Positions 4,977 to 62,200 are shown, counted from the first letter of the stretch. The stretch: DNA of 64,000 nt from Chiloscyllium plagiosum (GCF_004010195.1 NC_057749.1:7151416-7215415); one strand, 5' to 3'. Numbers and translations are program-made. The notes: generated by a model from the letters alone, not told the origin.

Positions 4977-5187
4977 AAGTTAAAAATCACACAACACCAG
5001 GTTATAGATCAACAGGTTTAATTGGAAGCACACTAGCTTTCGGAGCGATGAAGGAGCGATGAATCACCTGATGAAGGAGTGTCGCTCCGAAAGCTAGTGT
5101 GCTTCCAATTAAACCTGTTGGACTATAACCTGGTGTTGTGTGATTTTTAACTTTGTACACCCCAGTCCAACACCGGCATCTCCAAAT
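4977..5187 (+). mobile_element. Fold-back Penelope-like terminal-repeat insertion, family B
   Basis: 75 bp inverted arms (4974-5048 and 5082-5156, 2 mismatches), a 31 bp unique 3' end, and a 12 bp TSD ctagataaaaca (4965-4976, 5188-5199). Confidence 0.85.
5065..5099 (+). ncRNA. Minimal type I hammerhead ribozyme motif (family B)
   Basis: CAC-CUGAUGA-A-GGAGU guc GCUCC-GAAA-GCU-A-GUG: stem I CAC/GUG, palindromic stem III AGCU, CUA cleavage triplet. Confidence 0.75.
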
Positions 5188-5789
5188 CTAGATAAAACAG
5201 GACATGTGAATCATCCCCGAAAGGAGGATGGTGGCAGTACAGCTATCTGATGGTAAGACTCTGGCTATCTCATACAAATGGTGCCAGCTATGCTTGCCTT
5301 TCGATATCATTTAGGTGAACCATTACAACACTACCAACTCCGCCATGGTTTTTGACTGATTCAGGCACTATGTAAGCAAAGTTTCTCTTAGGTACCTCAA
5401 CATTTGGGAGGTCAGAAAATCCATCGAGACCTTCAAGGCATCTGTAACTTCCATTCCTTATTGTATGCTTTGCTATCGATGCCACAATTCACTGACCTTC
5501 TCCACACTTTTTCAACCCCTCCCCACCTTTGGGATAGTGGACTGAGATAATTCAACTATGACTGAGGCCTGCCCACTGTGGTACATTAAAGGAGAAACGC
5601 TGGAATGGTACTGAGCAAAGAATGCAAGCTGCAAAAAAGGAGTTGAACTTAAAAGGGCATTAAAGGCTTGAAAGCCTCATGTGCAGTGAAGGAAAGTTTA
5701 TTGCCAATCCTGTCACCAACTTTGTTCAGAGGGAACTTCCAATAATATTGTCAACAGTTGCTTTTTGATCTGTTCTGCTTCATACAATT

Positions 5790-6125
5790 CCTTCAGTGTG
5801 GATGCAAGCCATTCTGCCCATCACATTTATACTGACCTTCTGAAGGCTATCCCACCCAGATCCATCCCAACCATGTAACCCTGGATTCCTCATGGCTAAT
5901 CCACCTAACCTACACAATCCTGGACACTATGGGCAATTTAGCATTTTTACTCCACCTGACTTGAACATCTCTGGATTGTGGGAGGAAACCAGAAAACACA
6001 AAAGAATACCCACACAGACACAGGGAGAACTTGCAAAGTGTAGGCAAACAGTCATCCAAGAGTGGAATTGAACTTGGTCTCTGGTGCTATGAGGCAGCAC
6101 TGCTGACCACTGAGCTACCATGTCG
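5790..6125 (-). mobile_element. HE1-type V-SINE (diverged)
   Basis: V-domain and head motifs. Confidence 0.85.
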
Positions 6126-6160
6126 AGTGGGTTGAGAACACATTGGTAATTCTGTCAGAT

Positions 6161-6486
6161 GTTAGATTAGATTAGATTCCCTCCAGTGTGGAAACAGGCC
6201 CTTCGGCTCAATAAGTCCACACCGACCCTCCGAAGAGCAACCCACCCAGACCCATTCCCCTATATTTACCCCTGACTAATGCACCTAACACTATGGGGCA
6301 ATTTAGCATGGCCAATTCACCTAACCTGCCCATCTTTGTTGACTGTGGGAGGAAACCGGAGGAAACCCATGCAGAACGGGGAAAATGTGCAAACTCTACA
6401 CAGACATTTGCCCGAGGGGGGAATTGAACCTAGGCCCCTGGTGCTGTGAGGCAGCAGTGCTAACCACTGAGCCACCGTGCCGCCCC
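6161..6486 (-). mobile_element. HE1-type V-SINE
   Basis: (TTAGA)n tail, V-domain and head ggggcggcacggtggctcagtgg. Confidence 0.92.
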
Positions 6487-6605
6487 AATGTGACCTTTTC
6501 TGTCCACTGGACTGGGCATAATGGGGCAATGGTTGAATGTTTCATTTGCAAGGTGGCACTTCTGTCTGTGCCACACTGCCTCAGTGCTGCACCAATACTT
6601 AAAGG

Positions 6606-7218
6606 TGTTATGGACTAGGCCAGACCCCTCAAAACATTTTTAAGCAAGTAACCCAGATCATTACTTTGCTATTTATTTTTAGCGAGGTGCATAGTAGATA
6701 TTCCCAGAGTAAACTAGCTAGTTCGACTGCCAAGTTTTAAACAGACAAAATTTACTTACAAAAGTATGGAATGAAATGCATAGAACAGAAAACAGAATAC
6801 CAGATAACTTACCCAATCTAAACCCGACTTAATGACGCTGTTCCGAAAATACTTGCAACAGTCCCAGTACACACATTCCTTAGCACAAACAGCAAACAAT
6901 GACACAGGCAACTTACAGTTCAAAATCATAAGGGCAGAAGGACAGAGAGAAGGCTTCCAGTTTCCACTGTGACTGTTACTCACCTCACTCCTGAACTGAA
7001 TTGAACTGCACAGCTAGAGAGCTGGCCACGTCCCTTGACTATATCAGGTTTTCAAAAGACCTTTCAGGCTTTTGGCCTGAAGCGCTATCTGTTCAGGTAA
7101 ACAACAAGGCTCCAATGAACCATTCAAATTCAGATATGATGGAGCCTGGCCAATTACCCCTTCTCTGAAAAAAAGACTCAAGGGCAAAGTAATTTCATAC
7201 CAGACCAGTTTTGTGACC
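6606..7218 (-). mobile_element. Solo LTR (probably Gypsy-type)
   Basis: Runs tgttatggactaggcc...ttgtgacc with a 4 bp TSD aagg (6602-6605, 7219-7222). Homologous in reverse orientation to 50751-51465. Confidence 0.7.
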
Positions 7219-8999
7219 AAGGTAAGATGTGATGGTATGGCAAGTAGCAACACTATCACAGATGAAATGAGGTTTGAAAGCCATACAAAAGAAAAAGAAC
7301 TGGTATTTAAGTAGGCTTTTACATGGGACAGCAGGGCTTCAAAAATGCCCCAATCATGTAAGAGTCCTTTGGATGTTACACTGGAGAGAACTGAAGAACT
7401 AAGTTGAGTCAAGCCACATTCCACAATTTTTATTGTGACCTCACTCTCAAAGCTGCCATTAATGTGTGGACCAAACACACCATCAAAGTCAAATGACCAT
7501 CTTTTCAAGCTGTAAATCCTGCATTTTTCCATATGGTCAATTAAGGAGCATGGGCCTGATTTATTAAATGTGACTGCTGCCTTTACTGCCTTCCTCCACA
7601 GTGAAAAAACATTGCGGTAAATTCTTAATCCATACAAATATTTCCACTGCAAGGACGACAGCCCAGAATCTACAACATAACTACCCTTCCATATTTTTGC
7701 TTTCTAAATTCACAACAAGCCTCCCACCGCCAACATCCCTATGTCCACCCCTGCCCACAGGTCACTAAAGAAAATATCATGTGAAGGCTTCAGGACCCTG
7801 GAGCAACCTGTTGAGGATGTCATGGAGCTATACATCACTGAGCATAAATAACACAGCATGGGTGTAAATAGTACACTCTAAAATGAGAGAGTCTTAAGAG
7901 CACACAAAGAATGCAACTACAAGACGAGAGCCTGATATATCTTTGATTACCACGTATAGCAGTATTTTGTATTAATGTGTAACAAATACTGTTACTTCAA
8001 AGTCAAAGCCTGAAGTCTGTTCTCAAATTAGTCCTGACTGTTCCTGAACCCAAATGCATTTTGTGGTATCAAACCACAGGATGAGAGAGAAACTACTTGG
8101 AAAGAAGGGGCAAAGATAAGTCTTTATACAATCCTAGCATGACAAACAGATGAACAACAAATTAAACAAGTAATGAGGAATCAGCAGGTAAATACCAAAC
8201 TCAATATGCTGGGAATGAGCGCATCAGGCTCATACAGTATTTTACCCCAGACTTAATGAAAATCAGCCCTAATTGCATGATTATTTTGTAATTATCTTTG
8301 TATTGCTTTGTACTCCCTTGGCTGGGTAAATTATTATGGATCCTGCATTCATTTTAATTTAACTGCTTCAGCCTTACCTCTCCACCTCACTGCCTGTCTT
8401 GTATAAGAGAAGACTGATCTTTGTTTCAGTTCATTCCAATAGATGTCATTTCTCTTTTCATTTTCTTGTTGCATTTATTACTCCCAACATTCAAAGTGAA
8501 AGGAAGGAATCTCTTAGGGATCTGAGTGGCGTGGGCGATGGTGAGATTTATGGCAAAATCAGACAAGAACTCTGTCGTGGTCTGTCTTGACTTCAGGAGG
8601 GTCTGTCTGCATCTTTTACACTCTGCCGAGTGGCAAAGCAAGTTTCTCACTACTTCAGGGGGATCATAGCTTGTCGAATGCTTTATTCATGATGTAATTT
8701 TCATCACCAACATTCAGCTTCTTACCTTACCAAGATGCCAAATAAGTTAGATGTTGAGAGATCCCCACATGCAAATCAAAGAGTGTGCCTGGTGACTTGA
8801 ACTTGCTGCTGGCTATAAGAAACCTTCATGTTTCTCAAGACCAAAGAGTATCTCAGAGGCGTAACCTACAGGCACCAACCACTCACATCCCGCATCCATG
8901 GACATTGGATCACTGTTAGCATTGACACCCAACACTTTCCATACCCTCACCAACCATTGTGGCCCCTCTCCCAGGAAGCACAGACTGGGCACACCCGAC

Positions 9000-10178
9000 A
9001 ACTAATAATTGGAGGATTGCTTTTCAGACTGGAGGCCTGTGACCAGTGGTGTGCCACAAGGATTGCTGCTGGATCCACTGCTCTTTGTCATTTACACAAA
9101 TTATTTGGACATGAATATAAGAGCCTCTAAATTAGCAGATGACACCAAAATTGGAAATGTGGAGGACAGTGAAGAAGGTTACTTCAAAGTACAACACGAC
9201 CTTGATCAGATGGGCCAATGGGCTGAGGAGTGGCAGTTTAATTTAGATAAATGTGAGGTGCTGCATTTTGGAAAGACAAATCAGAGCAGGACTTAAACAC
9301 GTAATTGTAAGGTCCCAGGGAGTGTTGCTTAACAAAAAGACCTTGGAGTGCAGGTTCATAGTTTCTTGAAAGTGGAGTTGCAGAGAGACAGGGTAGTGAA
9401 GAAGGCATTTGGTATGCTTTCCTTTATTGGTCAGTAGATTGAGTATAGGAGTTGGGTGGTCATGTTGCAGCTGTACAGGACATTGGTCAGGCCACTTTTG
9501 GAATATTGTGTGCAATTCTGGTCTCCCTGCTACGGGAAGGATGATGTGAAACTTAAAAGGGTTCAGAAAAGATTTACAAGGATGTTAGGCAGGGTTGGTG
9601 GGTTTGAGCTATAGGGAGAGGCTTAATAGGCTGGAGCTGTTTTCCCTGGAGAGTTGGAGGCTGAGGGGTGACTTCATAGAGGTTTATAAAATCATGAGGG
9701 GTATGGATAGGGAAAATAGATAAGATCTTTTCCCTGGGTCGGGGAGTCAATAACTAAAGGGCAGAAGTTGGGTGAGAGGTGAAAGATTTAAAAGAGACCT
9801 AAGGGGCAACTTTTTCAGGCATATATGGAATGAGTTGCCAGAGGAAGTGGTGGAGCCTAGTATAATTACAACATTTAAAAGGCATCTGGGTGGGTACATA
9901 AAAAGGAAGGGTTTAGAGGGATATGTCCAAATACCTTTCCAGATGCCCATTTACCAATGCCAAGTTTCTCAATTATATGAGTGCCTTTGTATGAAGGATT
10001 CCCCCAGGATCTCACAGGCAATGCCTTGCTCTCCAAACAGCCTGAAACTTTGGCTCCATTTCTCTCTCCACAAGTGTGGCAAATGAGACTAGATTAATTT
10101 CAGATATCTGGTTGGCATGGATGAGTTGGACCGAAGGGTCTGTTTTGTGCTGCACAGCTCTACGACTCTATGACTGTA
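9000..10178 (+). mobile_element. HER1/CR1 LINE, 3' 1.2 kb (RT C-terminal half, disrupted)
   Basis: WRPVTSGVPQG...LFVIY...ADDTKIG...DKCEVLHFG; ctctatgact-type tail. Contains a 150 bp foreign insert at 9931-10080. Confidence 0.93.
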
Positions 10179-12512: not shown

Positions 12513-12542
12513 AATAATCCAGAATCCCAGACCCATGTTTTG

Positions 12543-22494: not shown

Positions 22495-23180
22495 CAGGAA
22501 CAGGAATAGGCCATTCAGCCCTTTGAGCCTGTTTCCAGATTCAATAAGATCATGACTGACCTGTAGCCTAATTGCCTTTGGCCCATATCCCTTAATATCT
22601 CTGGTTAACCAAAAAATTACCTATCACAGATTTAAATTGAACAACTGATCCTGCATCCACTGCCATTTTTGCAAGAGTATTCCAAAACATTTACCACCTT
22701 TTGTGCGTTGAAGTCATTCCTAACATCACTCCTGAACAGTCTGGCCCTAATTCTCAGACCATGTGCCCTCATTCTAGAATCACCAACCAGTGGACATAGT
22801 TGATTTTTGTCTACCATCTTTTCATGTTAATATCTTGAACACCTTCATCAGACCTTCACCATTGGTTGACTTTGAACTGCCCTCTGGGCAATTAGAGATA
22901 GCCAATAAATGCTGGCTTGGTCAGCGATGGCCTCATCTCATGAATGAAGTTTTAAAAATTCACCCCATGACCTTCTAAATTCAAACAAAAACAGGCCTAA
23001 TTTCTACAATCCCTCCTCATAACTAAATCCTTGAAGTCCAACTGTCATTCTTGTAAACATACATTGTACCTCTGCCAAGGCCAACCTTAGGTGTGGCCCA
23101 GATCTGCTCACAGTACTCCAAGTGGGGTCTAACCAGCGTTTAGTATAAATCAACACACCTTCTGCATCCTTATGCTCCAA
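22495..23180 (-). mobile_element. CR1 LINE 3' fragment
   Basis: Minus-strand ...VQCMFTRMTVGLQGFSYEE and tail aataggccattcagccc. Confidence 0.8.
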
Positions 23181-23310
23181 TCCTGATGAAGGGCTTTTGC
23201 CGAAACGCGATTTTCCTACTCCTCGGATGCTGCCAGACCTGCTGTGTTTTTCTAGCACCACTTTCATCAATGACTCTGATCCACAGCATCTGCAGTACTC
23301 ACTTTCGCCT
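23181..23310 (+). mobile_element. PLE terminal repeat, family A, sense arm only, starting at the hammerhead core
   Basis: tcctgatgaagggcttttgccgaaacg...ctcactttcgcct; matches 43541-43668. Confidence 0.85.
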
Positions 23311-23954: not shown

Positions 23955-24400
23955 AAACTAGGGGGCATAGCCTCAAAATAAGCAGGAGACTGGAAGAACA
24001 CAGCAAGCCAGGCAGCATCAGGTGGTGGGGAAGTCAACATTTTGGGTGTAACCCTTCTTCAGGACTTGGAGAATCTACCTTGGATTCCGGCATCTGCAGT
24101 TTTCTTTTTGTCTCAAACTAAGGGGGAGCAGATTTAGGACTGAGTTGAGGAGGAACGTCTTCACCCAAAGAGTTGTGAATCTGTGGAATTCACTGCCAGT
24201 GAAGCAGTTGAGGCTACATTGTTGAATGTTTTTAAGGCAAAGATAGATAGAATTTTGAAAAGTAAAGGAAGTAAGAGTTATGGTGAACGGGTGGGTAAAT
24301 GCAGCTGAGTTCACAAAAAGATCAGCCATGAGCTTATTAAATGGGTGGAGCAGGTTCAAAGGGCCAGATGGTCTATTCCAGCTCCTATTTCTTATATCAG
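23955..24400 (+). mobile_element. CR1 LINE 3' end containing a collapsed PLE fold-back (23983-24111)
   Basis: TSD ctcaaa(a/c)taag at 23972-23982 and 24112-24122. Confidence 0.8.
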
Positions 24401-25277: not shown

Positions 25278-25483
25278 GGAGAAAGTGAGGTCTGCAGATG
25301 CTGGAGATCAAAGTTGAAACTTTATTGCTGGAACAGCAGAGCAGGTCAGGCAGCATCCAGGGAACAGGAGATTCGACGTTTCGGGCACAGGCCCTTCCTG
25401 AAGAAGGGCCTGTGCCCGAAACGTCGAATCTCCTGTTCCCTGGATGCTGCCTGACCTGCTGTGCTGTTCCAGCAATAAAGTTT
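25278..25483 (-). mobile_element. Fold-back PLE terminal-repeat insertion, family A
   Basis: 85 bp arms (25313-25397 and 25403-25487, 1 mismatch); 14 bp TSD caacaatacacaca (25264-25277, 25484-25497); hammerhead core at 25395-25428 (+). Confidence 0.9.
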
Positions 25484-31614: not shown

Positions 31615-32160
31615 GTTGAGTCCAGATTCACCAAAGATCCTTAGGCAGTATCTTTCGAACCCACAACAACTTCCATATCGAAGGACAAGGGCAGCTGTTA
31701 CATGGGAACACCACCCTCTCGGAGCCAATCACCCAGTCAAAACGTGTGGTGCTAGAAAAGCACAGCAGGTCAGGCAGCATCCGAGGAGCAGTAGAGTCGA
31801 TATTTCTGGCATAATCCCTGGATCAGGAATATTCCTGATGAAGAGTTTATGCCCGAAACGTTGACTCTCCTACTCCTCGGATGCTGCCTGACCCACTGTG
31901 CTTTTCCTGTGCCACACTTTTCGACTCTGATCTCCAGCATCTGCCGTCCTCACTTTCTCCGAGGAACCAATCACCATCCTGACTTGGAAAGATATCGCTG
32001 TTCCTTCACTGTTGCTGGGTCAAAATCCTGGAATTCCCTCCCTGAAGGCATTGTGGATCCATCTACAGCACGTGGACTCAGTGTACTAGAAGGCAGCTCA
32101 CCATGACCTCCACAAGTGGAAACTAAGGATGAGCAATAAATGCTGGTCCAGCTCATGTCC
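31615..32160 (+). mobile_element. CR1/L2-group LINE (second family) 3' end
   Basis: Matches 18070-18460; interrupted at 31734-31962. Confidence 0.8.
31734..31962 (+). mobile_element. Fold-back PLE terminal-repeat insertion, family A (older)
   Basis: Imperfect arms around atcaggaatattcctgat; TSD gga(g/a)ccaatcacc (31721-31733, 31963-31975). Confidence 0.85.
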
Positions 32161-34114: not shown

Positions 34115-35597
34115 TCAACTCCAGCCTCCCCACTACTCTTGACCCACTCCAATTTGCCTATTGGACCAACAGATCTATGTCAGATGCCATATGACTTGCC
34201 CTTCACTCCTCCTTAGAACATCCTGACATCAAGAACAGTTACGTAAGAATCCTACTCATTGACTACAGTTCAGCCTTCAACACTATTATTCCCTTGAGAC
34301 TGATTACTAAACTTAGTGATCTCGGACTAAGCCCCACTCTCTGCAACTGGATCCTCAGTTTCCTGACCCACAGGCCACAATCAGTGAAGATTTCATCCTC
34401 ACTAACACACAACACTGAAGCACCTCCAGGAATGCATACTCAGCCCCCTACTGTACTCACTGTATACCCATGACTGCGTTGCCAAATACCAGACTAATGC
34501 CATTTACAAGTTCGCTGATGACTCCACCATAGTCATCTAATCTCAGATGGCGATTGAACAGACTTATAGGCGGGAGGTGGAAGACCCGGAAAAATGGTGC
34601 ACTGAGAACAAACTAGCTCTCAATGCCAGCAAAACCAAGGAACTCATTATTGACTTTCAGCGGGATGTTACTCATTTCCCCCCCTACACATTAACAGCAC
34701 AGAGGTGGAAGGAGTGGAGAATGTCAAGCTGCTGGGAGTGGTCATCAGCAACAAGCTTTCTTGGACTCTTCATGTGGATGCACTGGTTACAAAGGCCCAG
34801 CAATGTTTTTTCTTCCTCAGGCAGCTAAGAAATTTGGCATGATGGCGAATACCCTTGTCTACGTTTATTAGTGTGCCATCGAGAGCATTCTGTCTAGATG
34901 TATCACTACCTGGTATGGCAATTGTACCGTACAAGATTGGAGGCGGTTAAGTGAGTGGTGAACCCGGCCTGGACAATCACAAAGGCCAACCTCCCATCGA
35001 TGGAATCCACCTACCAGGCCTGCTGTCAAAAAAAGGCCACCAGCATTCTCAAAGATCCATCCCACCCTGGGAATGTTTCTCTACAACCTCTACCATCGGG
35101 GAGACGGTACAGAAGCCTGAACACATGCACCCGCCAGTTTCGAAACAGTTTCTACCCTATTGTTGTTAGAATATTGAATGGACTCATAAAAACTTAAGAC
35201 TAAAGTGGTGCTGGAAAAGCATAGCAGGTCAGGCAGCATTCGAGGAGCAGGAAAATCGATGTTTTGGGCAGGAGCCCTTCATCAGGACTTCATTCCCTGA
35301 TGAAGGGCTTTTGCCCGAAATGTCAATTTTCCTGCTCCTCAGATGCTGCCTGACCTGCTGTACTTTTCCAGCATCACTCTAATCTTGACTCTGATCTCCA
35401 ACATCTGCAGTCTTCACTTTCGCCTCATAAAAACTTAACATTTGCCTGTACCTGTGTTTTTGTTTTTGCCGCTGTTTACCTATTATTTACTATCTATGCT
35501 ACTTAATTATGTGAGCTGCCTGTATTGCTCACAAGAGAAAGCTTTTTACTGTGCTTTGGTACATGTGACAATAAATTCAATTCAATTCATTCCAATT
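34115..35597 (+). mobile_element. Rex1/Babar-type LINE, 5'-truncated RT pseudogene
   Basis: [60 protein letters not shown]; (aattc)n tail. Interrupted at 35198-35423. Confidence 0.88.
35198..35423 (+). mobile_element. Fold-back PLE terminal-repeat insertion, family A
   Basis: Inverted arms around cttcatcagg-acttcattc-cctgatgaag; perfect 15 bp TSD ctcataaaaacttaa (35183-35197, 35424-35438). Confidence 0.9.
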
Positions 35598-39824: not shown

Positions 39825-40420
39825 GGTTCAAAGGTGACTAGAACACCTATGTTCTGTCTGCAAAATATGATCCTGACCTTCCAGCTGCCGACCACTCCAA
39901 TACACCACCATGTTTCCTGGCCAACATCTCTGTCTCAGGGTTGCTGCAATGCTCCAGAGAAGCTCAGTGCAAGCACATCTCACTTTCCACTTGGGAACCC
40001 TACAGCCTTCTGGACTCAATATTGACTTCAACAATTTTAGGCCATGAGGAACCTTCTCCCATGTCCTTTGCCCAATTCCTGCACCCCAGGCCTTGTCATC
40101 ACATGGTCTGCTACATACATAACCTATTGTCAGCTACTAACAGTCTCCATTCGCAGCTATTCATTCTCCTAGACTGACCTATACCCAGTTCTTTGTTTGT
40201 CCAACTGTTTTTCTCTCTCTTTAGGCTCGATGTCCACCTATAATTTACTCCTCCCCATTGCGTCCCCGCCCATCCCCCAACCAGCTTCTGCATAAATACC
40301 AACCTTTTCCTAGCTACAATCAGTTCTGAAGAAGGTCACTGGACCCAAAGCATTAACTCTGATTTCTCTCCACACCAGCTCTGTCCTACCACCTGAAGTT
40401 TTCCATCAATTTCTGCTTTA
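39825..40420 (+). mobile_element. Neptune-type PLE 3' fragment with family C terminal repeat
   Basis: GIY-YIG C-terminus remnant (..FHLGTLQPSGLNIDFNNFR); degraded hammerhead cagttctgaagaaggtcactggaccc at 40321. Confidence 0.75.
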
Positions 40421-41104: not shown

Positions 41105-44100
41105 TCTATCATTTTCCATCACTATTTTAAAACTAATGGTTGCTGGCCCCAAAGTGCTCCCCCACTGACACTTCAGTCACCTGCCCTGCCTTATTTCCCA
41201 AGACTAGGTCAAGTTTTGCACCTTCTCCAGTAGGTACATTCACATACTGGATCAGAAAATTTTCTTGCACACTCTTAACAAATACCTCTCCACCTAAATC
41301 CTTAACCCATCTAGTCCCAGTCTATGTTTGCAAAGTTAAAATCCCCTATCATAACCACCCTATTATTCTTACAGATAACTGAAATCTCCTTACAAATTTG
41401 TTTTTCAATTTCCCGCTGACTATTAGGGTGCCTATAACGCAATGCCAATAAGGTGATCATCCCTTTCGTATTTCTCAGTTCCATCCAAATAACTTCCAGG
41501 AAGTATTTCCAGGAATATTCTCCCTCAGTACAGCCATAATGCTGTCCCTTATTAAAACACCACTCCCCCTCCTCTCTTACCTCCCTTTCTATCCTTCCTG
41601 GAGCATTTGTATCCTGGAACATGAAGCTGCCAGTCCTGCCAATCCCTGAGCCATGTTTCTGTAATTGCTATGATACCCCAGTCCCACGTTCCTAACTATG
41701 CCCTGAGATCATCTGCCTTCCCTGTTTGGCCTCTTGCATTGACACAAATGTAGTTTAATTTATCAGTCCTACCTTGTTCTCTGCTTTGTTCCTGCCTGCC
41801 CTGACTATTTGACTCGCTTCTTTTCTCAACTGTACCAGTCTCAGACTGATTTCTTTTCGCAGTATCTCCCTGGGTCCCACCTCCCCTCCTTACTAGTTTA
41901 AATCCTCCTGAGCAGCTCTAGCAAATCTCCCTGCCAGTATATTAGTCCCCTCCAATTCAGGAGCAATCCATCCTTCTTCTTCAGGTCACTTCTACCCAAG
42001 AGATTTCAATGATCCAAAAATGTGTATCCTTCTCCCATATAACAACTCCTCAGCCACGCATTCATCTGCTCTATCCTCCTATTCCTACCCTCACTAGCTC
42101 GTGGTACCTGGAGTAATCCAGGTATTACTACCCTCAAGGACCTCCTTTTTACATTCCTGTCTAAATTTCTACATTCTCCCTTCAGAATCTCATCGTTTTC
42201 CCTTCCTATGTCATTGGTACCAATGTGTACAATGACCTCCTGCTGGTCCCTTTCCCCTTTGAGAACATTTTGTACCCTCTCTGAGACATCCTTGATCCTG
42301 GCACCAAGGAGGCAACACACCATTCCGATTTTTCACTGCTGGCTGCAGAAACGTCTGTTTGTGCCCCTGAGTAGAGAGTCCCCGATCGCTTGGAACCCGA
42401 CGTACCCCTCATTTCATTACACCCAGTCTTGATACCAGAAACTTGGCTGTTCGTGCTACATTCCCCTGAAAGTCCATCACCCCCAACATTTTCCAAAACA
42501 GCAGACTTGTTTGGAATACGGATAGCCACAGAAGACACCAGTGCTACCTGCCGCATCTGCTCTCAGTAGGACCAGTTCCACTACAGAACATGTTAGATGA
42601 CCTCCTTCTTTAAAGGCCACAATTCCCCCTCCCATGTTGATGATGCCCTCCAGTGCATCTCATCCACTTCCCGCACCTCCGCCCTCAAACCCCACCCCTC
42701 CACCCGCAACAAGAACAGAACCCCCTCCGGTCCTCACCTTACACCCACCAACCTCCGTATGCATTGCATCATCCTCCACCATCACCTACAAACGGACCCC
42801 ACCACCAGAGATATATTTCCCTCCCCACCCCAATCCGCTTTCCGTAAAGATCGTTCCCTCCGGGACTACCTGGTCAGGTCCACACCCCCCAATAACTCAC
42901 CATCTCCTCCTGGCACCTTCCCCTGCCACCGCAGGAATTGCAAAACCTGCACTCACACCTCTCCCCTCACCTCCATCCAAGGCCCCAGAGGAGCCTTCCA
43001 CATCCATCAGAGTTTTACCTGCACTTGCACACATGTCATTTACTGCATCTGTTGTTCCCGATGCGGTCTCCTCTACATTGGGGAGACGGGACGCCTACTC
43101 GCAGAGCACTTCAGAGAACATCTCCGGGACACCCACACCAACCAACCCCACTGCCCCGTGGCCAAACACTTCAACTCCCCTTCCCGTTGTGCCGAGGACA
43201 TGCAGTTCCTGGGCCACCTCCATCGCCGCTCCCTTCCCACCCGACGCCTGGAGGAAGAACGATTCATCTTCCACCATGGGACTCTCCAACACCATGGCGT
43301 CAATGTGGATTTCAGCAGTTTCCTCATTTCCCCTCCCCCCACCTTACCCTAGTTCCAATCTTCCAGCTCAGCACCACCCTCATGACCTGTCCCACCTGTC
43401 CATCTTCCTTCCCACCTAACCGCTCCACCTTCCCCTCTGACTTATCACCGTTACCTGCACCTCCATTGACCTAGTGCACTCTCCCCCACAGCCCCACCCC
43501 CTCCCATTTATCTCTCTACCCCCGAGGCTCCCAGCCTCATTCCTGATGAAGGGCTTTTGCCCAAAATATCGATTTTCTTTCTCCTTGGATGCTGCCTGAC
43601 CTGCTGTGCTTTTTCAGCATCACACTCTCAACTCTAATCTCCAGCATCTGCAGTTCTCACTTTCACCTTCCTGTACTACCCACCTACCTCTCCTACCTTT
43701 CTTGGAGTTAACTCATCTACCTGACTGTATCTGCAACTTTACTCCCTTCCTAAAACTGCCATCTATCACACACTCTTGCTCATGTAAATTCCTCATTGCC
43801 TCTAACTGTCGCTCCAACTGATCCATTCAATATGACAGGATTCGCAACCAACAACATTTATTGCGGATATAATCCTCAGTAACCCTTAAACTCTCCCAAA
43901 ACTCCTACATATGACAAGAAGAGCATTTCACTCGACTAAAGGCCATTTTGCTCCTTCCAAATTACAGATGCAGAAAATAACACCGTCTTATTGCTCTACA
44001 AAACACTGCTCCAGGCTAGCTTAATATGTATGGCTTATATTTTTAAAATTTAATCAAGAGACAGATCCCGATAAAAACAAATAATCAAGAAAGAACCCAT

Positions 44101-49584: not shown

Positions 49585-49880
49585 TAGAGTCTATCAACAA
49601 ACACATCGAGTTAGACCCCCATCTAGCACCCCCTGAGTAAAAGAACAGGAAATGACATCATCACAGGAAATGATGTCACCACAGGAAATGTCATCACCAA
49701 CCCAAAGAAACCCAAATATATAAGTAGAAAGCAGGAATTATCAACAGTGCTTTGCCCGGAGGCCCACTGAAGATGTTACCTAGGAGGGTGACGAAACGTC
49801 TGGAAATGAACCTTCCAGCTCAGTGAGCAAACCTACATCCAGAACCTCCACCTGAGCTACAAATCTTCTCAAAACTCCCT
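49585..49880 (+). mobile_element. Poseidon-type PLE 3' end (family D terminal repeat)
   Basis: SINKHIELDPI C-terminus, 3' UTR and an intact hammerhead motif. Confidence 0.8.
49764..49803 (+). ncRNA. Minimal type I hammerhead ribozyme motif (family D)
   Basis: CCA-CUGAAGA-U-GUUACC uaggag GGUGAC-GAAA-CGU-C-UGG. Confidence 0.8.
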
Positions 49881-49904
49881 AATAATCAATAATGTTTCTT
49901 ATGT

Positions 49905-50052
49905 CTGGCAAAAGCCCTTCATTCCTGATGAAGGGCTTTTGCCCGAAACGTTGATTTTGCCTGTCCTCGGATGCTGCCTGAATTGCTGTGCTCTTCCAGC
50001 ACCACTAATCCAGAATCTGGTTTCCAGCATCTGCAGTCATTGTTTTTACCTC
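49905..50052 (+). mobile_element. PLE family A insertion with a short (16 bp) fold-back
   Basis: ggcaaaagcccttcat-tcctg-atgaagggcttttgcc; perfect 14 bp TSD aatgtttcttatgt (49891-49904, 50053-50066). Confidence 0.88.
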
Positions 50053-50212: not shown

Positions 50213-50436
50213 AAACAAAAGCAGACATTGCTGGAAAAGCTCAGCAGGTCAGGCAGCATCTGTGGAGAGAAATCAGAATTAACGTTTCGGGTCGAGTGAC
50301 CCTCAGGAAGGGTCAATGGTCCCAAAATGTTAATTCTGATCTCTCTTCATGGATGCTGCCAGACCTGCTGAGTTTTCCAGCAATGCCTGCTTTTGTTTCT
50401 GATTTCCAGCGTCCAAAGTTCTTTCAGTTTTTGTTT
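50213..50436 (+). mobile_element. Fold-back PLE terminal repeat, family C
   Basis: About 90 bp imperfect arms around gtgaccctcaggaagggtca, plus a unique 3' end. Confidence 0.8.
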
Positions 50437-52834: not shown

Positions 52835-53110
52835 AGGTTGTCGGCTTGCTCGCTGAGCAGGTGGGTGTGTTCTCAGACATTGCATCACCCATGTCAGGTA
52901 ACATCATCAGTGAGCCTCCAGTGAAGCATTGGTGCTCTGTCCCACTTGCTATTTATGTGTCTTGCTTTGTTCTGGTGGGTGATATCATTTCTAGTTCTGG
53001 TTCTGAGAGGTTGGTAAATGGTCTAAATCTATATATTTGTTAATGGAGTTCCAGTTTGAATGCCAGGCCTCTAGGAATTCCCGTGTGTGTCTTTGGTCTG
53101 TCCCAGTTGA
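52835..53110 (-). mobile_element. Poseidon-type PLE 3' end
   Basis: Minus-strand REFLEAWHSNWNSINKYIDLD; degraded hammerhead CUCA-CUGAUGA-U-GUUACC..GGUGAU-GCAA-UGUC-UGAG. Confidence 0.78.
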
Positions 53111-53993
53111 ACTGGTGTCCCTCTTCATCTGTGTGCATCATTTGCTAGTCCTTTAATCCGTCCTCTTTCAGCAGTTGGTGTAGAGTCCTAACTTTCTCTT
53201 CACCCACTCTGCATTTTTCCAAAATTTGATGAAATGCCTAATATCCAGCCTTCAGTTCCAGCAGCTTTTTCCCTGCTGTTTTTAGACTTCTGAATGGACC
53301 TCTCAAATTTTATATTTAATGTTGATCCTGCTCTTTGTGCACTTTCTCTGCAGCCATCCATTATATTCCTCACTCTATTCCATGATCCTAATGCACAATC
53401 AAAACAAAACTTTTCACTCTACCTTGGTACGGGGCAGTAATAAATCAAATCAAATCACATCAAAAGAAGGCTCAACCCACAGCATCATGAGGAAGTTCTG
53501 AGGAAGGGTCACTGGATCTGAAATGTTAACTCTGATTTCTCTACACAGATGCTGTCAGACCTGCTGAGATTTTCCAACAACTTTTTATTTTGCATTATGA
53601 TGCATCATCACCCTTTACAATGCTGCCTGAACTATTGCTTAGCTCCAGCCCGTGCTGACAGTCAAATGGAAAAAAAAAGTTTTCTGCTTCTTTCTTCTTC
53701 TCAATTCGACAGAATTTCATTAGGAAAAAAAATAAAATTGGTCTTTGCAATGTTGGAAAGGGAGCTTAATCTTTTGCATTCAATTAACCGAATCATCTCT
53801 CTAGATTAAATTTGTTTTCGATGTTTCTCACTCTTCAATGGAAGATACTATTCATCTTGCTTTATGGTGTCATCTCCCTCAAATTTGTCAATTATTAAAC
53901 CACCTATCACATCGCTACACCTGCACATTTCTGCCACCAGTTGGACTTTCTTATGTTGCAGCAAGGGCTGAGTGGCCTTCTGTTATTCCCCAC

Positions 53994-54183
53994 AAACAAA
54001 AACAGAAATAGCTGCAAAATCTCAGCAGGCCTGGCAACATCTGTGCAGAGAGAAAGCAGAGTTAACGTTTTGGGGTCCCGTGTTCTGAAGAAGGGTCACT
54101 GGACCTGAAACATTAACTCTTGTTCTGTCTCCACAGATGCTGCCAGACCTGATGAGGTTTTCCAACAGTTTCTGTTTTCGTTT
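53994..54183. mobile_element. Fold-back PLE terminal repeat, family C (further single arms at ~25745, 31040, 46880, 51635, 52505, 53495)
   Basis: Inverted arms; core gttctgaagaagggtcactggacctgaaacattaac. Confidence 0.8.
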
Positions 54184-54284: not shown

Positions 54285-54612
54285 AAGAAAGATTTGCATT
54301 TATTGACTGTCCCTCATGATCTCTAGCCATCCCAACATCCCAATTAAATTATTTGGTTGTAATGTATGAAAGCCAAAAAGTCATGCTGCAAACTCCCATA
54401 AATAGAAGTACAATAATGACCAGATCATCTGTTCCATCAATGTGGGAGAGAAATATTGCAGATCTCCTTTGATCTTCAAAATAATGCCTTGGGATCTTTC
54501 ACAACTGCCTAAGAGGGCAGCTACTTGAGTCTTTGGCTTAATGTCTTACCCCAAAGGCAGCACATCTGGCAATGTTGCACTCCCTCAGAGCAAACTCTGA
54601 GTGCAAACCTAC
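54285..54612 (-). mobile_element. DeuSINE (SacSINE1/AmnSINE1-like)
   Basis: ttgcatttat...aatgaccagatcatctg...gccttgggatcttt...ttaatgtc...gcactccctcag. Confidence 0.7.
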
Positions 54613-54674
54613 AGGAAAAGACCTTTAAAATTGACAGGCATTGGCCTAACTTGTCTTGTTCACTTCAAATGGAG

Positions 54675-55020
54675 CTCTCCATTGGGGAGACACGAAACCA
54701 ACTTGCAGAACGTTTCAGAGAACATCTCTGGGACACATGCACTAAACAACCCCACCACACCGTGGCTGAACACTTTAACTGCCCCTCTCACTCCGCCAAG
54801 GACATGCATGCCCTGGGCCTCCTCCACCATCAAACCCTAACCACCCGACGCCTGGAGGAAGAACACCTCATCTTCCACCTTGGGACCCTCCAACCACACT
54901 GGATCAATGTGGGTTTCACCAGTTTCCCCATTTCCCCTTCCCCCACCTTATCCCAGATCTAACTTGCCCGAAACGTTGATTTCGCTGCTCCTCAGATTTC
55001 CAGCACCTTTGGTTTTTTTT
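54675..55020 (+). mobile_element. Neptune-type PLE GIY-YIG fragment with a collapsed terminal repeat
   Basis: IGETRNQLAERFREHL..VAEHFN..RRLEEEHLIFHLGTLQP. Confidence 0.88.
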
Positions 55021-58460: not shown

Positions 58461-58467
58461 CCATGAT

Positions 58468-58795: not shown

Positions 58796-58969
58796 TTCAA
58801 AAGATAATTCTTGAACTGCAACGAGCCTTGGAAAATCCTGAGGTTGCGAATGGAGAATCGATGAACGTTACACAGAAAAATCCTCCTTTGTACTGTGCTC
58901 TTCCCAACTGTTCAGCACCCCAATGTACATTGTAATTAATGAAATACTTTTGAACTGCAGTCATTGAAA

Positions 58970-59240: not shown

Positions 59241-59439
59241 CATCCAGTGTAGTCAGTGTTGTAGTGAAGGTAAGCCAGCAGTACATTTGGTAGTAATGAC
59301 TATCATAAAGAAATGAAACCTGGATCCAGCAGAGGTGTTGACTCAACATTTGGGTTGCTAGACAGTCAACGACAACCACAACTGAAAACAAATGAGTGAG
59401 GTCGCGATATAAACTGACATCTAAGGAAAAGATTCAAAA

Positions 59440-59960
59440 TGGAGCTCGGAGTTCATGAGTTGAAGCTGTTGAACTGAATATTGAGTCCTTAAAGGTATAA
59501 AATGCTTAGTTGCAAGATGAGATGCTGTCCCTTAAGGTTTTATTGCACTTCACTGGAACTCTGCAGCAGGAAAAGACATTATATTTTAACACAAAAGGAA
59601 GATGGTGAATTAAAATGGCAAAAGACTGAAGAGTTGGTATCATTCTTGCAGATAAAGAGGAGGCGTTCTGCAGTCACCCAGTTGATGTCCCCAGTGAAAA
59701 GTAGAACACATTGTGAATACAGCAAGACAAGATTGAAAGTACAAGTACTTGTTTCACTTTGAAGGAATGTTTGGGGTCTTGGTTTAGGAGGTGGTACTCT
59801 ACCTGCATCTGCATGGAAAGATGCCATGGAGTAGAGAGTAGTTGTGGTTGGCTGACTAGCAACTCAAGTGTTGTGGAGGGCATGGCTCCTTTTGAATCCC
59901 GACAGGCAGCAGGGTGAAGATGCGTTTGGCAGTGTCTGAAGGCAACAGAATTGGCAGAGA
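59440..59960 (-). mobile_element. Old Neptune-type PLE fragment
   Basis: Reverse ...ggactcaatattcagttcaacagcttc resembles 40010-40040; YIGET-like remnant near 59680. Confidence 0.6.
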
Positions 59961-59964
59961 ATGA

Positions 59965-60432
59965 TTAAGCTGGAGAGGGTTCAGAAGAGATTCACCAGGA
60001 TGGTGAATATGGAAAACTTTGAGTTATAAAGAAAGGCTGGGTAGGCTAGGGCTTTTTGCGCTGGAACATAGGACGTTGAGAAGTGACCTTAAAGAAGCTT
60101 ATAAAGTAATGAAGGATAGAGGTAGAGTTAATGGTAGCTGTCCTTTCCCTATGATGCAGAATATCAAGACTAGAGGGCGGAGAGAAGAGAGACTGAGGGG
60201 CATTTTTTTTACACAGAGGGTGGTTTGCATATGGAAAGAACTTCCTGAGGAAGTGGTGAATGTGGGCATGATTACAATGTTTAAAAGACATTTGGATAAG
60301 TATATGAATAGGAAAGGGTTGGAGGGATATGGGCCAGGAGCAGGCAGCTGGGACTAGTTTAGTTTGGGATTATGTTCGGCATGGACTGGTTGGACCGAAG
60401 GGTCTGTTTCCGTGCTGTATGACTCTATGACT
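59965..60432 (+). mobile_element. HER1/CR1 LINE 3' end
   Basis: SYKERLGRLGLFALE..FFTQRVVCIWKELP; tgtatgactctatgac tail. Confidence 0.9.
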
Positions 60433-60729
60433 TGATGATTACAGAGACTGGTGGTATGGAAGGTATGGATAAAGGGAATTCTATTGTGGTTACTTGAGAA
60501 AGAAGGAGGGAAGAACACAAAAATATTGGAAATGTAACAGACACAGTCAAGAGCCCTATTAATCATTGTGGTTGAGGAATAAAAGAAGTCACCTCAGGAA
60601 CACTACTGTGGAAAGTCACACCATCACAAGAGATACTTGAGAGACAAAATAACTGTGAATATGGAAGGGAGTCCTTATAGGGTCAAAGGTATGAGAAACC
60701 ACTGTCAAGATAGCTGTAGGAGACAGTGT

Positions 60730-61140
60730 TCTACCGATGTGAATGTCACTGGCAAGGTCATCATCTTAATTCCCTTTGAAAAGGTGGTGATGAATCACCC
60801 TGATGAACCATGTGGTCTACATATTTCGAGAAAGAAAGCAGGCTAACACAGCCGAGGGGCTTTTTCAGCTGTTTTGGAAGCAGTTAAGGGTCAATCCTGT
60901 TTCTATGGATCTGGAACCATATGTAGACCAGACTGGGTAAGGACAGTACATTTACTTCCCTGAAGATCATCAGTGAACCAGATGGATTTTTATGGCAATA
61001 CTATAGTCTCACAGTCAAATGAAACTAATACTTTATTTGAAATTTATTAAGTAAACCTAAAACCATCAGTCTACCTGGTGAGATTTAATTTCCTTGTCTC
61101 GAATGCAATGTTGCAATCCTCTGAGATTACGAGGCCAGTA
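60730..61140 (-). mobile_element. tRNA-derived SINE, family B (diverged)
   Basis: atgtagaccagactgggtaaggac...cttccctgaag..agtgaaccagatgg. Confidence 0.6.
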
Positions 61141-61892
61141 TTTTTAAGTGGCTATTGAACTTTTAGAAGTTAAATGTGGAGATTTGAAAGTACAATTAAT
61201 CCCATAACTTTTCCTTTCCTCGTTGCCTTAATTCCATTTTGTGCTCAGTCCAACCTTCTCACCAACTCAGAAACCTCCTGGGCAATGCCCACAATAGGAA
61301 CCCCATTCACTAACCAGGTCACTAGGGAGTGACATTGATGCATTTTAATGCAGGGCTTCAGAAAGTTATCAATCTTTAGGAGATTAAAAACACCTTTAGT
61401 GGAAAAAAAACTGCTGCACTGGTCTCATTTGAATGCCAGTAATTATTCCATCTCGTTGTAGCAATCAACTCAATCATCGTGTTGCTTCCAGTATCAATAC
61501 ACAGAGATTACTACTTATTTGATTTTGTGCTGATGAAATTGACCTGAAATTAACAAGTAGATCATCAGCAAATTGGATACTGTAACTTTAATTGGGTTTC
61601 GCTGAGCCACAGCACTTCTGGCCCCTGCAGTGCATCATTTCCGAACAGTGACAAAAGTTACAGAGCTTCTGCAAGGAACACTGGCAGCTACAGAACTCGC
61701 AGAATATTTTGTTTAGTTTCTTTATGAGCATCATTGTTAAAATAAGATCTGAGGGAAGTTATTAGAAGTAGATGCTTTTGGTAATGAAGAAAAATTAGAT
61801 CCACTGGCTAGTGTGTCATGAGCTACAAGAAATAAAGTTGCGATCATTGCTTGTTAACACAGAGCTTGTGTACTGCTGAAAAGAGAGATGCA

Positions 61893-62200
61893 CTATCAAA
61901 GGTTTTCATCCTGCACTCATCAGGACAGGTGCAAGAATGCCAAATTTCAAAGGAAGCAACAACATATGCTTCCTGAGAACAGGCTGCTGATTGGTTGGCA
62001 AGTCAACATTGTTTGTTTGAGATTTTGCCATGGAGGATGTACCAGGAACTCTTATTCCAAATTATAATTAAAAAAAAAAGCACAATGGTAGGACTTGTTC
62101 TTTGTGCTTGCAGAGGATAGGTCACTGTGCAGTATAAGCTATTGTTCCCTTTGAAATTTGGCACTCTTGCATCTGTCCTGATGAGTACAAAATGAAAAAT
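61893..62200. mobile_element. Inverted-repeat element with outward-facing hammerhead-like cores (family E)
   Basis: Arms ~61903-61966 and ~62132-62198, each with tttgaaatttggca.tcttgca.ctgtcctgatgagt.ca..atgaaaa. Confidence 0.65.

What the first reader, a model, noticed from the sequence alone, without database searches (positions are those of the whole stretch)
5065..62198. Five sequence-distinct repeat families covary around one minimal hammerhead fold
Seen, as stem I-core-stem II-GAAA-stem III-H-stem I'. A: UUC CUGAAGA A GGGC..GCCC GAAA CGU C GAA (25395). B: CAC CUGAUGA A GGAGU..GCUCC GAAA GCU A GUG (5065). C: AGUU CUGAAGA A GGGUC..GACCC GAAA CGU U AACU (consensus of 40321, 50280, 53495, 54082). 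D: CCA CUGAAGA U GUUACC..GGUGAC GAAA CGU C UGG (49764), with CUCA/UGAG in the 52860 copy. E: UGUC CUGAUGA GU..AU GAAA ..GAUA (61894, degraded). Stems change sequence but keep pairing. In A-D, stem III is a loopless palindrome (ACGU or AGCU) and an extra base follows A9. Established: minimal hammerheads with palindromic stem III can act as dimers. Inference: selection kept the fold across both Neptune and Poseidon lineages.
Basis: partly seen in the sequence, partly recalled or inferred. Interest (0 to 1): 0.7.

Follow-up and report, generated by a model that had tools for sequence, protein, structure and literature searches.

The report
Penelope-type minimal hammerhead ribozyme repeats
Four of the five repeat families carry the stripped-down hammerhead ribozyme motif that Penelope-like jumping genes are already known to carry, so the catch is real but belongs to a known kind.

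Summary
Families A-D are real. Copies at 25395 (A), 5065 (B) and 49764 (D) read exactly as described. C is decayed at CpG sites but recognisable. E is not a hammerhead and not a repeat family. A strict minimal-hammerhead descriptor finds 4 sites in the window against 0 in 200 shuffles. All 10 modelled stem pairs show changes on both sides across 54 copies. The motifs belong to Penelope-like retroelements (PLEs). A, B and C lie 150-700 nt downstream of GIY-YIG endonuclease remnants, and the A- and B-linked ones carry the Neptune-type CX4CxxC linker. D overlaps the end of a Penelope/Poseidon-type ORF. Most genomic copies are dead: 4 of 54 keep core and stems. Cleavage is untested, and RNA reads show no ends at the cut site. 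Many copies are 90-126 nt stubs or head-to-head pairs whose 5' ends fall 0-9 nt before C3. This scan reported the same thing at least eight times in this genome. Verdict: new member of a known kind, low interest.

The parts
5063..5101 (+). Family B minimal hammerhead, intact (stem III AGCU, H = A)
   Evidence: (strict descriptor)
4974..5048 (-). Inverted partner of the B copy, cut off inside stem II (head-to-head pair)
   Evidence: 97% over 75 nt, query 28-102
23178..23213 (+). A2-type copy, decayed (deletions in stem II and stem III)
   Evidence: (23.3 bits)
24031..24067 (-). A2-like copy, decayed (GAAA reads AAAA)
   Evidence: (36.4 bits)
25393..25430 (+). Family A hammerhead, intact. The right arm of a roughly 57-nt palindrome, and this copy starts at C3
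   Evidence: 43.3 bits
25370..25407 (-). Inverted partner of the A copy, cut off at G8
   Evidence: 33.6 bits
31794..31867 (.). Head-to-head pair of decayed A/A2 copies (minus 31794-31831, plus 31830-31867)
35253..35329 (.). Head-to-head pair of A2 copies (minus 35253-35290, plus 35292-35329)
39842..40174 (+). Remnant of a PLE endonuclease C-terminus upstream of the C copy
   Evidence: (profile E 3.3e-09 and 6.9e-04)
40321..40359 (+). Family C copy, decayed
   Evidence: (31.2 bits)
42597..43352 (+). PLE GIY-YIG endonuclease reading frame with a CX4CxxC linker (Neptune type) and LYIGETGR
   Evidence: Pfam GIY-YIG E 0.0071, 17.1 bits, below the 22.6 cut-off. Relatives found
43538..43575 (+). A2 copy about 190 nt after that reading frame, decayed (GAAA reads AAAA)
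   Evidence: (39.2 bits)
49762..49805 (+). Family D hammerhead, intact (extra base U, 6-7 bp stem II)
   Evidence: (40.1 bits)
49920..49957 (+). A2 copy with intact core and stem II. Stem I is 2 bp, a U-U mismatch, then 1 bp
   Evidence: 47.5 bits
50276..50336 (.). Head-to-head pair of C copies (minus 50276-50311, plus 50297-50336), joined inside the core
52871..52915 (-). Family D copy with CUCA/UGAG stem I. GAAA reads GCAA
   Evidence: 22.8 bits
53493..53532 (+). Family C copy that passes the descriptor with G-U wobbles
   Evidence: (47.2 bits)
54041..54119 (.). C copy on plus (54080-54119), and an inverted partner on minus whose downstream module motif lies at 54041
   Evidence: (49.3 bits)
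54513..54959 (+). Second PLE endonuclease remnant (62% identical to 42597-43352 over 100 aa), followed by a hammerhead remnant with a deletion
63200..63318 (.). Head-to-head pair of A copies (minus 63200-63237, plus 63281-63318). Both arms run about 35 nt upstream of the hammerhead
   Evidence: The hairpin between them is the sub-threshold 'mir-734' match
61890..61932 (-).

Best explanation
Families A (with subfamily A2), B, C and D are the minimal, helix-III-less type I hammerhead motifs (min-HHR) carried by Penelope-like retroelements.

Shown here:
- Each motif has the CUGANGA and GAAA boxes, one unpaired base after A9, a 4-6 bp stem II and a short stem I.
- Each has a loopless palindromic ACGU or AGCU in place of stem III, so a monomer cannot close helix III.
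- A, B and C lie in the 3' untranslated tail of PLEs, 150-700 nt after the GIY-YIG endonuclease remnant and about 90-126 nt before the end of the insertion.
- The A- and B-linked endonucleases carry the Neptune-type linker.
- D lies across the stop codon of a Penelope/Poseidon-type ORF.
- The stems differ between families while pairing is kept.

Inferred from the literature, not tested here: two copies on one transcript or on two transcripts pair their palindromes into a shared helix III. They then cut after GUC, GUU or CUA, slowly, and probably with help from the element's own protein.

Also inferred: selection acts on the few source elements. The tens of thousands of inserted copies are 5'-truncated stubs, partial tandems and head-to-head inverted copies that decay neutrally, mainly at CpG sites.
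For: Motif and chance:
- Strict descriptor: 4 window hits against 0 in 200 shuffles and 0 in the reversed sequence. The 200 kb random genome sample gives 3 against 0 reversed.

Covariation, using a model built from A, A2, C and D seeds:
- It finds 54 copies at E up to 1 in the window plus 200 kb, 18 of them in the window.
- 72.9% of cells pair, against 61.6% shuffled (0 of 500 shuffles reach it).
- 64 cells change on both sides, against 20.4 (0 of 500).
- All 10 pairs have changes on both sides.
- Partners slid by 1-3 columns pair in only 6.8-47.3% of cells.

Agreement between families:
- Family B was not used for the model and not found by it, yet it has the same layout: GGAGC/GCUCC and AGCU.
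- Between families, pairs 10.2, 10.3, 10.4, 2.1, 2.2 and 2.3 change on both sides.
- 10.1-11.1 stays G-C or G-U.
- Monomer minimum-energy folds of A (L005), C and D copies give stem I plus stem II with an open core.

PLE link:
- tblastn and a profile built from the window's endonuclease frame find remnants upstream, on the same strand, of A/A2, B and C copies.
- A/A2: window 42597 to 43538, plus L024, L019, L022 and L005.
- B: L017.
- C: window 39877 to 40321, plus L022, L021 and L027.
- D-lineage loci show an RT C-terminus, a cysteine-free linker, and VIYKIPCKDCHKHYVGQTGR. The ORF ends ..TDDVT with its stop in loop 2.

Abundance:
- A 30-mer at up to 2 mismatches: 51,409 places.
- B 32-mer at up to 3 mismatches: 40,083 places.
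- D endonuclease tail: 60,216 first-look candidates.

Literature:
- PMC4209133 (main text parts 1-2 read) describes exactly these features in PLE pLTRs, including fish Xena, Poseidon and Neptune.
- PMC8557442 (passages) describes 5' truncation, partial tandems, adjacent inverted copies and a 30-40 bp tail.
Against: - Rfam finds no hammerhead at gathering score or at E up to 10. This is expected, since those models need helix III.
- Only 4 of 54 copies keep every feature. Stem I has 3 or more contiguous pairs in 19 of 54.
- In the commonest A and A2 subfamilies, pair 2.3-1.3 is U-U.
- Fold energies are no better than shuffles, with z from -1.24 to +0.56.
- The alignment used for the pair counts was fitted to the model, and the copies are related, so the shuffle control overstates support.
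- Raw polyA single-cell RNA reads cover the module on both strands. They show no place where molecules begin or end, at the predicted cut site or elsewhere, and 1,463 of 1,515 reads run on into other loci.
- TSD-flanked stubs contain the whole uncut hammerhead, so their templates were not cleaved.
- Published work reports low in vitro activity (PMC4209133).
- For an Anolis Poseidon element, cleavage occurred only with protein present, insertion was unaffected by core mutants, and no RNA-seq ends lay at the cut site (PMC11167929, passages).
Confidence: 0.88

Rival explanations
1. The hammerhead-shaped fold is kept for a job other than self-cleavage. It may mark or hold the 5' end of the retrotransposition template, acting as a transcription start, a reverse-transcriptase stop or a template-jump point. 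It may also bind the element's protein. Cleavage would then be incidental.
For: - Seven TSD-flanked stubs start 0-3 nt before C3.
- In 100 listed exact-core A copies without A at -15, my hand count gives about 71 head-to-head junctions and about 21 unique flanks within 15 nt of C3. About 4 are long or near-long forms that continue upstream, and about 4 are other junctions.
- DNA contigs lose likeness 4 nt before C3 in 119 records (table 7).
- TCATTCC (A) and TCAGTTC (C) fit the initiator consensus YYANWYY with A at -4. The consensus is recalled, not taken from a call.
- PMC11167929 reports that insertion did not depend on core mutants.
Against: - The catalytic boxes CUGANGA and GAAA, and H at position 17, are what is conserved across lineages with different stems. 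That points to catalysis, not merely to shape.
- B and D do not fit the initiator motif.
- The RNA reads showed no starts at -4.
- About 68 of 100 listed copies with A at -15 continue upstream, so the edge is not obligatory.
- This reading can be true together with cleavage.
Confidence: 0.2
2. The short copies are autonomous-looking non-LTR retrozymes. These are small non-coding elements that spread through self-cleaved circular RNAs, not leftovers of PLE insertion.
For: - The units are 89-126 nt long, begin with a hammerhead, and are flanked by 9-14 bp target duplications (8 bp in one further stub), with tens of thousands of copies.
- A 2026 preprint argues that animal retrozymes derive from PLE pLTRs (abstract).
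Against: - Retrozymes are tandem arrays with one hammerhead per unit. TRF finds 3 arrays in the window, none with a hammerhead unit.
- The stubs are identical to the last 90-126 nt of longer copies that continue upstream into endonuclease ORFs.
- They carry the uncut site.
- Their ends are the PLE 3' end and tail.
Confidence: 0.07
3. The motif is a chance resemblance that became frequent only because the repeats that happen to hold it multiplied.
For: - CTGANGA..GAAAC alone is expected 1.83 times per window.
- E is such a chance match.
- Fold energies are unremarkable.
Against: - Four families with unlike stems and unlike flanks share the same boxes, the same extra base, a G at 10.1 and a palindromic stem III.
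- They show compensatory changes.
- There were 0 strict hits in 200 shuffles.
- The same motif is present in PLEs across animals (PMC4209133).
Confidence: 0.03

Closest known systems
Minimal hammerheads (min-HHR) in the pseudo-LTRs of metazoan Penelope-like elements (Cervera & de la Pena 2014, PMC4209133)
   Same: - No helix III, with a palindromic 15.2-16.2.
- An unpaired base between A9 and 10.1, and G at 10.1.
- Short helix I and a longer helix II.
- Many consensus families per genome, with covariation.
- Single copies from truncated elements, and pairs on opposite strands.
- Presence in fish Neptune and Poseidon elements.
   Different: - This genome's families are not named in the parts I read. 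The searchable supplement file has no shark or Callorhinchus entry (file 1 was not searched).
- Copy numbers here are tens of thousands per family, above the 4,000-9,000 quoted for coelacanth and Xenopus.
- Stem II of A is only 4 bp.
Hammerhead of the Anolis Poseidon element PAc (PMC11167929)
   Same: Family D has the same layout. A9, the extra U and G10.1 spell AUG at the start of stem II. [quoted passage not shown]
   Different: I could not show that the frame opened by that AUG runs into the PLE protein, because the element bodies are withheld as N in the loci. In D the upstream ORF also ends inside the hammerhead, with its stop in loop 2.
Animal non-LTR retrozymes (PMC7229834, abstract in listing only; bioRxiv 10.64898/2026.07.22.740005, abstract and passages)
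   Same: Small non-coding units with type I hammerheads, related to PLE pLTRs.
   Different: Retrozymes are tandem arrays that give circular RNAs. Here the units are solo or head-to-head, flanked by target duplications, and are the plain 3' ends of PLEs.
Canonical type I hammerheads of Rfam (newt and Schistosoma satellite type)
   Same: The same catalytic boxes, the same type I topology, and a short palindromic stem III that implies dimer action.
   Different: There is no helix III at all and no loop-loop contacts. No Rfam hammerhead model matches, even at E up to 10.

Membership tests
PLE min-HHR (Cervera & de la Pena 2014) | Catalytic boxes CUGANGA and GAAA, with H (not G) at position 17 | tested here: met
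   Intact in the cited A, B and D copies and in the C copy at 53493. Among 54 model hits, the first box is intact in 40, GAAA in 37 and H in 52.
PLE min-HHR (Cervera & de la Pena 2014) | No helix III or loop 3; positions 15.2-16.2 palindromic | tested here: met
   ACGU in A, C and D; AGCU in B. The palindrome is kept in 40 of 54 copies.
PLE min-HHR (Cervera & de la Pena 2014) | One unpaired nucleotide between A9 and 10.1 | tested here: met
   A in A, A2, B and C; U in D.
PLE min-HHR (Cervera & de la Pena 2014) | G10.1-C11.1 pair | tested here: met
   G-C is the commonest pair in every family. G-U arises where the C of a CpG changed. The abundant D subfamily has G-U.
PLE min-HHR (Cervera & de la Pena 2014) | Open helix I of about 4-5 bp (type I) | tested here: inconclusive
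   - 4 bp in the youngest A copies (AUUC/GAAU).
- 3-4 bp in C, and 3 bp in B and D.
- Only 2 bp, a U-U mismatch and 1 bp in most older A and A2 copies.
- 3 or more contiguous pairs in 19 of 54 copies.
PLE min-HHR (Cervera & de la Pena 2014) | Lies in the flanking repeat or untranslated tail of an element that encodes RT and a GIY-YIG endonuclease | tested here: met
   Endonuclease remnants lie upstream, on the same strand, of A/A2, B and C copies. RT plus endonuclease lie upstream of D. The window's own frame scores below Pfam's cut-off. No complete element was seen.
PLE min-HHR (Cervera & de la Pena 2014) | Self-cleavage, as dimers | not testable with these tools
   RNA reads gave no ends at the cut site. 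Homodimer cofolding was uninformative.
Rfam hammerhead families | Match to a curated covariance model | tested here: not met
   0 matches at gathering score. None of the 14 matches at E up to 10 is a hammerhead.
Neptune (or Nematis) clade of PLEs | Zn-finger-like CX2-5CxxC motif in the linker before the endonuclease (PMC8557442) | tested here: met
   CHRRNCKTC in window 42597-43352, A2-linked. CHGGRCKTC in L017, B-linked. The C-linked remnant is too decayed to judge. No RT phylogeny was made.
Penelope/Poseidon clade of PLEs | C-terminal GIY-YIG without that linker motif | tested here: met
   D-lineage frames in L033 and L034 have no cysteine in the roughly 55 residues before NVIYKIPC. This is absence of a motif only. 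No phylogeny was made.
Animal non-LTR retrozymes | Tandem arrays of units, each with a hammerhead | tested here: not met
   TRF finds 3 arrays in the window, none with a hammerhead unit. The copies are solo or inverted.

The most novel reading that the evidence does not exclude
The outer edge of helix I, 0-9 nt before C3 and most often the A of AUUC at -4, is the preferred 5' end of the RNA that gets copied in these lineages. It is also the point from which the reverse transcriptase jumps to make the head-to-head partner. On this reading the hammerhead serves as a 5'-end module. One version is an initiator-like start site laid over helix I, followed 90 nt later by AAUAAA. That would give a self-contained mini-transcript that the PLE machinery copies tens of thousands of times. 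The hammerhead would then not be, or not only be, a unit-length cutter.
Probability: 0.2. Interest if true: 0.5.

Novelty: new member of a known kind. Interest (0 to 1): 0.18.

Why it matters
The finding adds no new mechanism. It does show a vertebrate genome in which PLE minimal hammerheads reach tens of thousands of near-identical copies per family. Both Neptune-type and Poseidon-type lineages sit side by side in it. That supplies plentiful natural variants for testing dimer cleavage and the disputed role of the ribozyme in PLE transposition. The sharp pile-up of copy 5' ends at the hammerhead's edge is a concrete, testable clue to that role.

Tried and rejected
- **Rfam scans.** At gathering score and at E up to 10 they found no hammerhead. 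The 'mir-734' and 'mir-1295' rows are the hairpin of the head-to-head pair at 63226-63292.
- **Family E.** Rejected as chance.
- **The RT at 27958-30435.** I first took it for the PLE's, but it reads as a LINE-type RT by eye. It is not used as PLE evidence.
- **Histogram of blastn query starts.** It cannot separate long copies from short ones, because seed A's own upstream is a palindrome arm. I dropped it, apart from noting two C copies that begin at or near the cut site (51595, 46867).
- **Homodimer cofolding.** It only extends hairpins into duplexes and says nothing about helix III.
- **Search for RNA runs.** No RNA holder was listed.
- **Laid runs.** X16 laid 0 reads, so it is no test. X2 and X11 are contigs and cannot show ends.
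- **Locus with a 1,335-aa 'open frame'.** It proved to be 3,558 of 4,801 N, so the D-lineage N-terminus and a full element could not be read.
- **Lunse, Weinberg & Breaker 2016.** Not held. I saw only its citation in PMC6765202.
- **Initiator-motif idea.** It fits A and C but not B or D, and it rests on a recalled consensus.

Full report
**1. What is at the coordinates**

I read every cited place.
- The C copies at 40321, 53495 and 54082 are decayed versions of one motif.
- 50280 is the centre of an inverted pair of C copies.
It has the CUCA/UGAG stem I, but its GAAA box reads GCAA.

I wrote a strict descriptor: stem I of at least 3 bp, CUGANGA, 0-1 extra base, stem II of at least 4 bp, GAAA, an A-N-N'-U palindrome, then H.
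- It finds 4 sites in the window: 5068, 25398, 49767 and 53498.
- It finds none in 200 dinucleotide shuffles and none in the reversed sequence.
- A 200 kb random sample of the same genome gives 3 hits, against 0 reversed.
- The looser pattern CTGANGA-N6-36-GAAAC occurs 8 times against 1.83 expected.

**2. Family E is not part of it**

- On the minus strand at 61890-61932, stem II would be only G-U plus U-A.
- There is no palindromic stem III.
- The minimum-energy fold pairs the CUGAUGA box away.
- blastn finds no copy outside the window.
- The stretch is one arm of a 68-nt inverted repeat, 61903-61970 with 62131-62198, 84% complementary.
- A core-only match of this kind is expected by chance.

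**3. The families are real repeats**

blastn with window seeds covered the window, 20 random 10 kb pieces of the genome (L009-L028, 12,835 bases masked as N) and 8 A-biased loci. It gave 41 A, 25 A2, 25 C, 17 B, 9 D and 2 E places.

Genome-wide counts:
- The A 30-mer occurs 51,409 times at up to 2 mismatches.
- The B 32-mer occurs 40,083 times at up to 3 mismatches.
- The reversed-pattern controls gave 0.

A, A2 and C share the same downstream module, roughly 20 nt followed by GATGCTGCCWGACCTGCTG...TTCCAGCA. They are therefore related subfamilies, not independent inventions. B and D have unrelated flanks.

**4. Covariation**

I built a covariance model from 10 A, A2, C and D copies, with 5 stem I pairs and 5 stem II pairs. 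It found 54 copies at E up to 1 in the window plus the random 200 kb, 18 of them in the window.

On that alignment:
- 72.9% of cells pair, against 61.6% after shuffling (0 of 500 shuffles reach it).
- 64 cells change on both sides, against 20.4 (0 of 500).
- All 10 pairs show such changes.
- Sliding the 3' partners by 1-3 columns drops pairing to 6.8-47.3%.

Two caveats apply. The alignment was fitted to the model, and the copies are kin.

Family B was neither in the model nor found by it, yet it shows the same layout. Stem II differs by family:

| Family | Stem II |
|---|---|
| A | GGGC/GCCC |
| B | GGAGC/GCUCC |
| C | GGGUC/GACCC |
| D | GUUACC/GGUGAC or GGUAAU |

- Stem I pairs 2.1 to 2.3 differ on both sides between families.
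- Within B, pair 2.3-1.3 is C-G in one subfamily and U-A in another, with a U-G intermediate.
- Within D, the same pair is C-G or U-A.

Support is weaker for stem I of the commonest A and A2 copies. There, pair 2.3-1.3 is U-U in 13 of 21 and 11 of 21 copies.

Monomer folds of A (L005), C and D copies give the expected two stems. Their energies are ordinary, with z from -1.24 to +0.56.

**5. What the repeats are**

Pfam on all 170 reading frames of 75 aa or more gave one weak GIY-YIG match, at 42597-43352 (E 0.0071, below the cut-off).
- The translation of that frame shows CHRRNCKTC followed by VIYCICCSRCGLLYIGETGR.
- An A2 hammerhead follows it 190 nt downstream.

Using this frame as query and as a profile, I found endonuclease remnants on the same strand, 150-700 nt upstream of the following copies:
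- A/A2 copies in L024, L019, L022 and L005.
- The B copy in L017, which carries CHGGRCKTC and is 28% identical to the window frame.
- C copies at window 40321 and in L022, L021 and L027.

The CX2-5CxxC linker marks the Neptune and Nematis clades (PMC8557442, passages).

Upstream of D copies lies a different endonuclease tail. Loci fetched with it show:
- An RT C-terminus.
- A linker without cysteines (LPYIKEVSEMTARLLRP...).
- NVIYKIPCKDCHKHYVGQTGR, which is the Penelope/Poseidon pattern.
- An ORF that ends ...TDDVT with its stop codon in loop 2 of the hammerhead.
- A9, the extra U and G10.1 spelling AUG.

[quoted passage not shown] I could not follow the frame into a PLE protein, because the element bodies are withheld as N.

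The RT at 27958-30435 reads as LINE-type by eye and is unrelated.

**6. Shape of the insertions**

Young A copies are of three kinds.

(a) Long copies continue upstream (...CTCTGCTCATTC) into the PLE tail and ORF.

(b) Stubs of 89-126 nt:
- They start 0-3 nt before C3.
- They end at ...AATAAAGTTTCA, or 36 nt further on (the 'tail').
- They are flanked by target duplications. Six have 9 bp or more abutting the hammerhead, against 2 in a control placed 40 nt upstream. One more has 8 bp.

(c) Head-to-head inverted pairs joined within a few nt of C3. Of 80 located copies, 25 have an inverted partner within 400 nt.

Genome-wide, the exact 20-nt core of A occurs 13,430 times.
- Of the 100 listed copies with A at -15, I counted about 68 long ones by hand.
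- Of the 100 listed copies with another base at -15, I counted about 71 head-to-head, 21 with a unique flank, 4 long or nearly so, and 4 other.
- DNA contigs of a run of this species lose likeness 4 nt before C3 in 119 records, and at the tail end in 72 (table 7).

Truncation, partial tandems, adjacent inverted copies and a 30-40 bp tail are textbook PLE features (PMC8557442). TRF finds no tandem array with a hammerhead unit in the window.

**7. State of the copies, and RNA**

Of the 54 model hits:
- 40 keep the first box.
- 37 keep GAAA.
- 40 keep four stem II pairs.
- 19 have 3 or more contiguous stem I pairs.
- 4 keep everything.

Most core changes are CG to TG or CA. G12 is A in 14 of 54 copies, and C15.2 is U in 13. 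The inserted copies therefore decay without constraint.

One polyA single-cell RNA run of the species (X15, about 2% of it read) gave 1,515 reads on L005:1000-2800.
- They lie on both strands.
- 1,463 of them run on into other sequence.
- No place was reported where molecules begin or end, so there is no sign of cutting at 1528|1529.
- Such libraries are poor at catching 5'-OH ends.
- X16 gave 0 reads, so it is no test.

**8. Comparison with what is known**

Cervera & de la Pena 2014 (PMC4209133, main text parts 1-2 read) defined min-HHRs in PLE pLTRs. They listed as their hallmarks:
- G10.1-C11.1.
- Palindromic 15.2-16.2.
- A short helix I and a longer helix II.
- Consensus families 'full of covariations'.
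- Motifs on opposite strands 100-700 bp apart.
- Occurrence in fish Xena, Poseidon and Neptune.
- Dimer action with low activity in vitro.

A 2019 review repeats this and cites Lunse et al. for dimer cleavage (PMC6765202, passages). That paper is not held.

I found no shark or Callorhinchus entry in the one searchable supplement of the 2014 paper (file 1 was not searched).

Earlier notes of this scan report the same elements at least eight times in this genome. My tests agree with them.

**9. Verdict**

- It describes a known kind of ribozyme in a known kind of element.
- Catalysis remains untested.
- The only point that goes a little beyond the papers I read is how sharply copy 5' ends and inverted junctions pile up at the outer edge of helix I. 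I give a modest chance that this reflects a 5'-end role for the motif.

Noticed in passing
Genome-wide; window 25393, 31830, 35292, 50297, 63281; L001, L003, L004, L006, L012, L022, L027: Copy 5' ends and head-to-head junctions of family A pile up 0-9 nt before C3, most often at the A of ATTC (-4). TCATTCC (A) and TCAGTTC (C) fit an initiator-like YYANWYY with that A at +1, a consensus I recall rather than tested. An AATAAA lies about 75 nt downstream.
   Followed up: partly
L030-L032, L035 (hammerhead near 1805 or 4352); window 49762-49805: In the Poseidon-type family D, the last five codons of the ORF (..TDDVT) overlap the CUGAUGA box and the 5' strand of stem II, and the stop codon sits in loop 2. 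The 'extra base' U after A9 completes an AUG with G10.1.
   Followed up: partly
window 63226-63292 (-): The sub-threshold Rfam matches to mir-734 (39 bits, E 0.00037) and mir-1295 are simply the perfect hairpin formed by the head-to-head pair of A copies.
   Followed up: yes
window 27958-30435 (+) and 41314-42332 (-): - RVT_1 frames of a LINE-type RT lie at 27958-29383 and onward.
- On the minus strand lies a LINE-like endonuclease fragment (41314-41667, Exo_endo_phos_2, E 0.0042) with a GDSL/OSK esterase-type fragment (42009-42332) next to it.
- This lies next to the PLE endonuclease frame.
   Followed up: no
It may be a fold-back or MITE-like element. No other copy appears in 288 kb of sampled sequence.
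   Followed up: partly
window 49645-49699: An 18-nt tandem repeat (3.1 copies) just upstream of the D hammerhead. It encodes the repeated ..NDIT/NDVT.. peptide at the tail of the D-lineage ORF.
   Followed up: no
window 51595 and 46867 (+): Two C-family copies begin at or within 2 nt of the predicted cleavage site (position 1.1). These are the only candidates I saw for templates that had been cut. I did not check them for target duplications.
   Followed up: no
L005:1183-1670 and 2464-2800: PolyA single-cell RNA reads cover PLE tails on both strands, and nearly all continue into unrelated sequence. That fits read-through from host transcripts better than element-driven transcription.
   Followed up: partly
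window 9009-9293 (+): A short RVT_1 fragment (E 2.2e-07) of unknown type.
   Followed up: no
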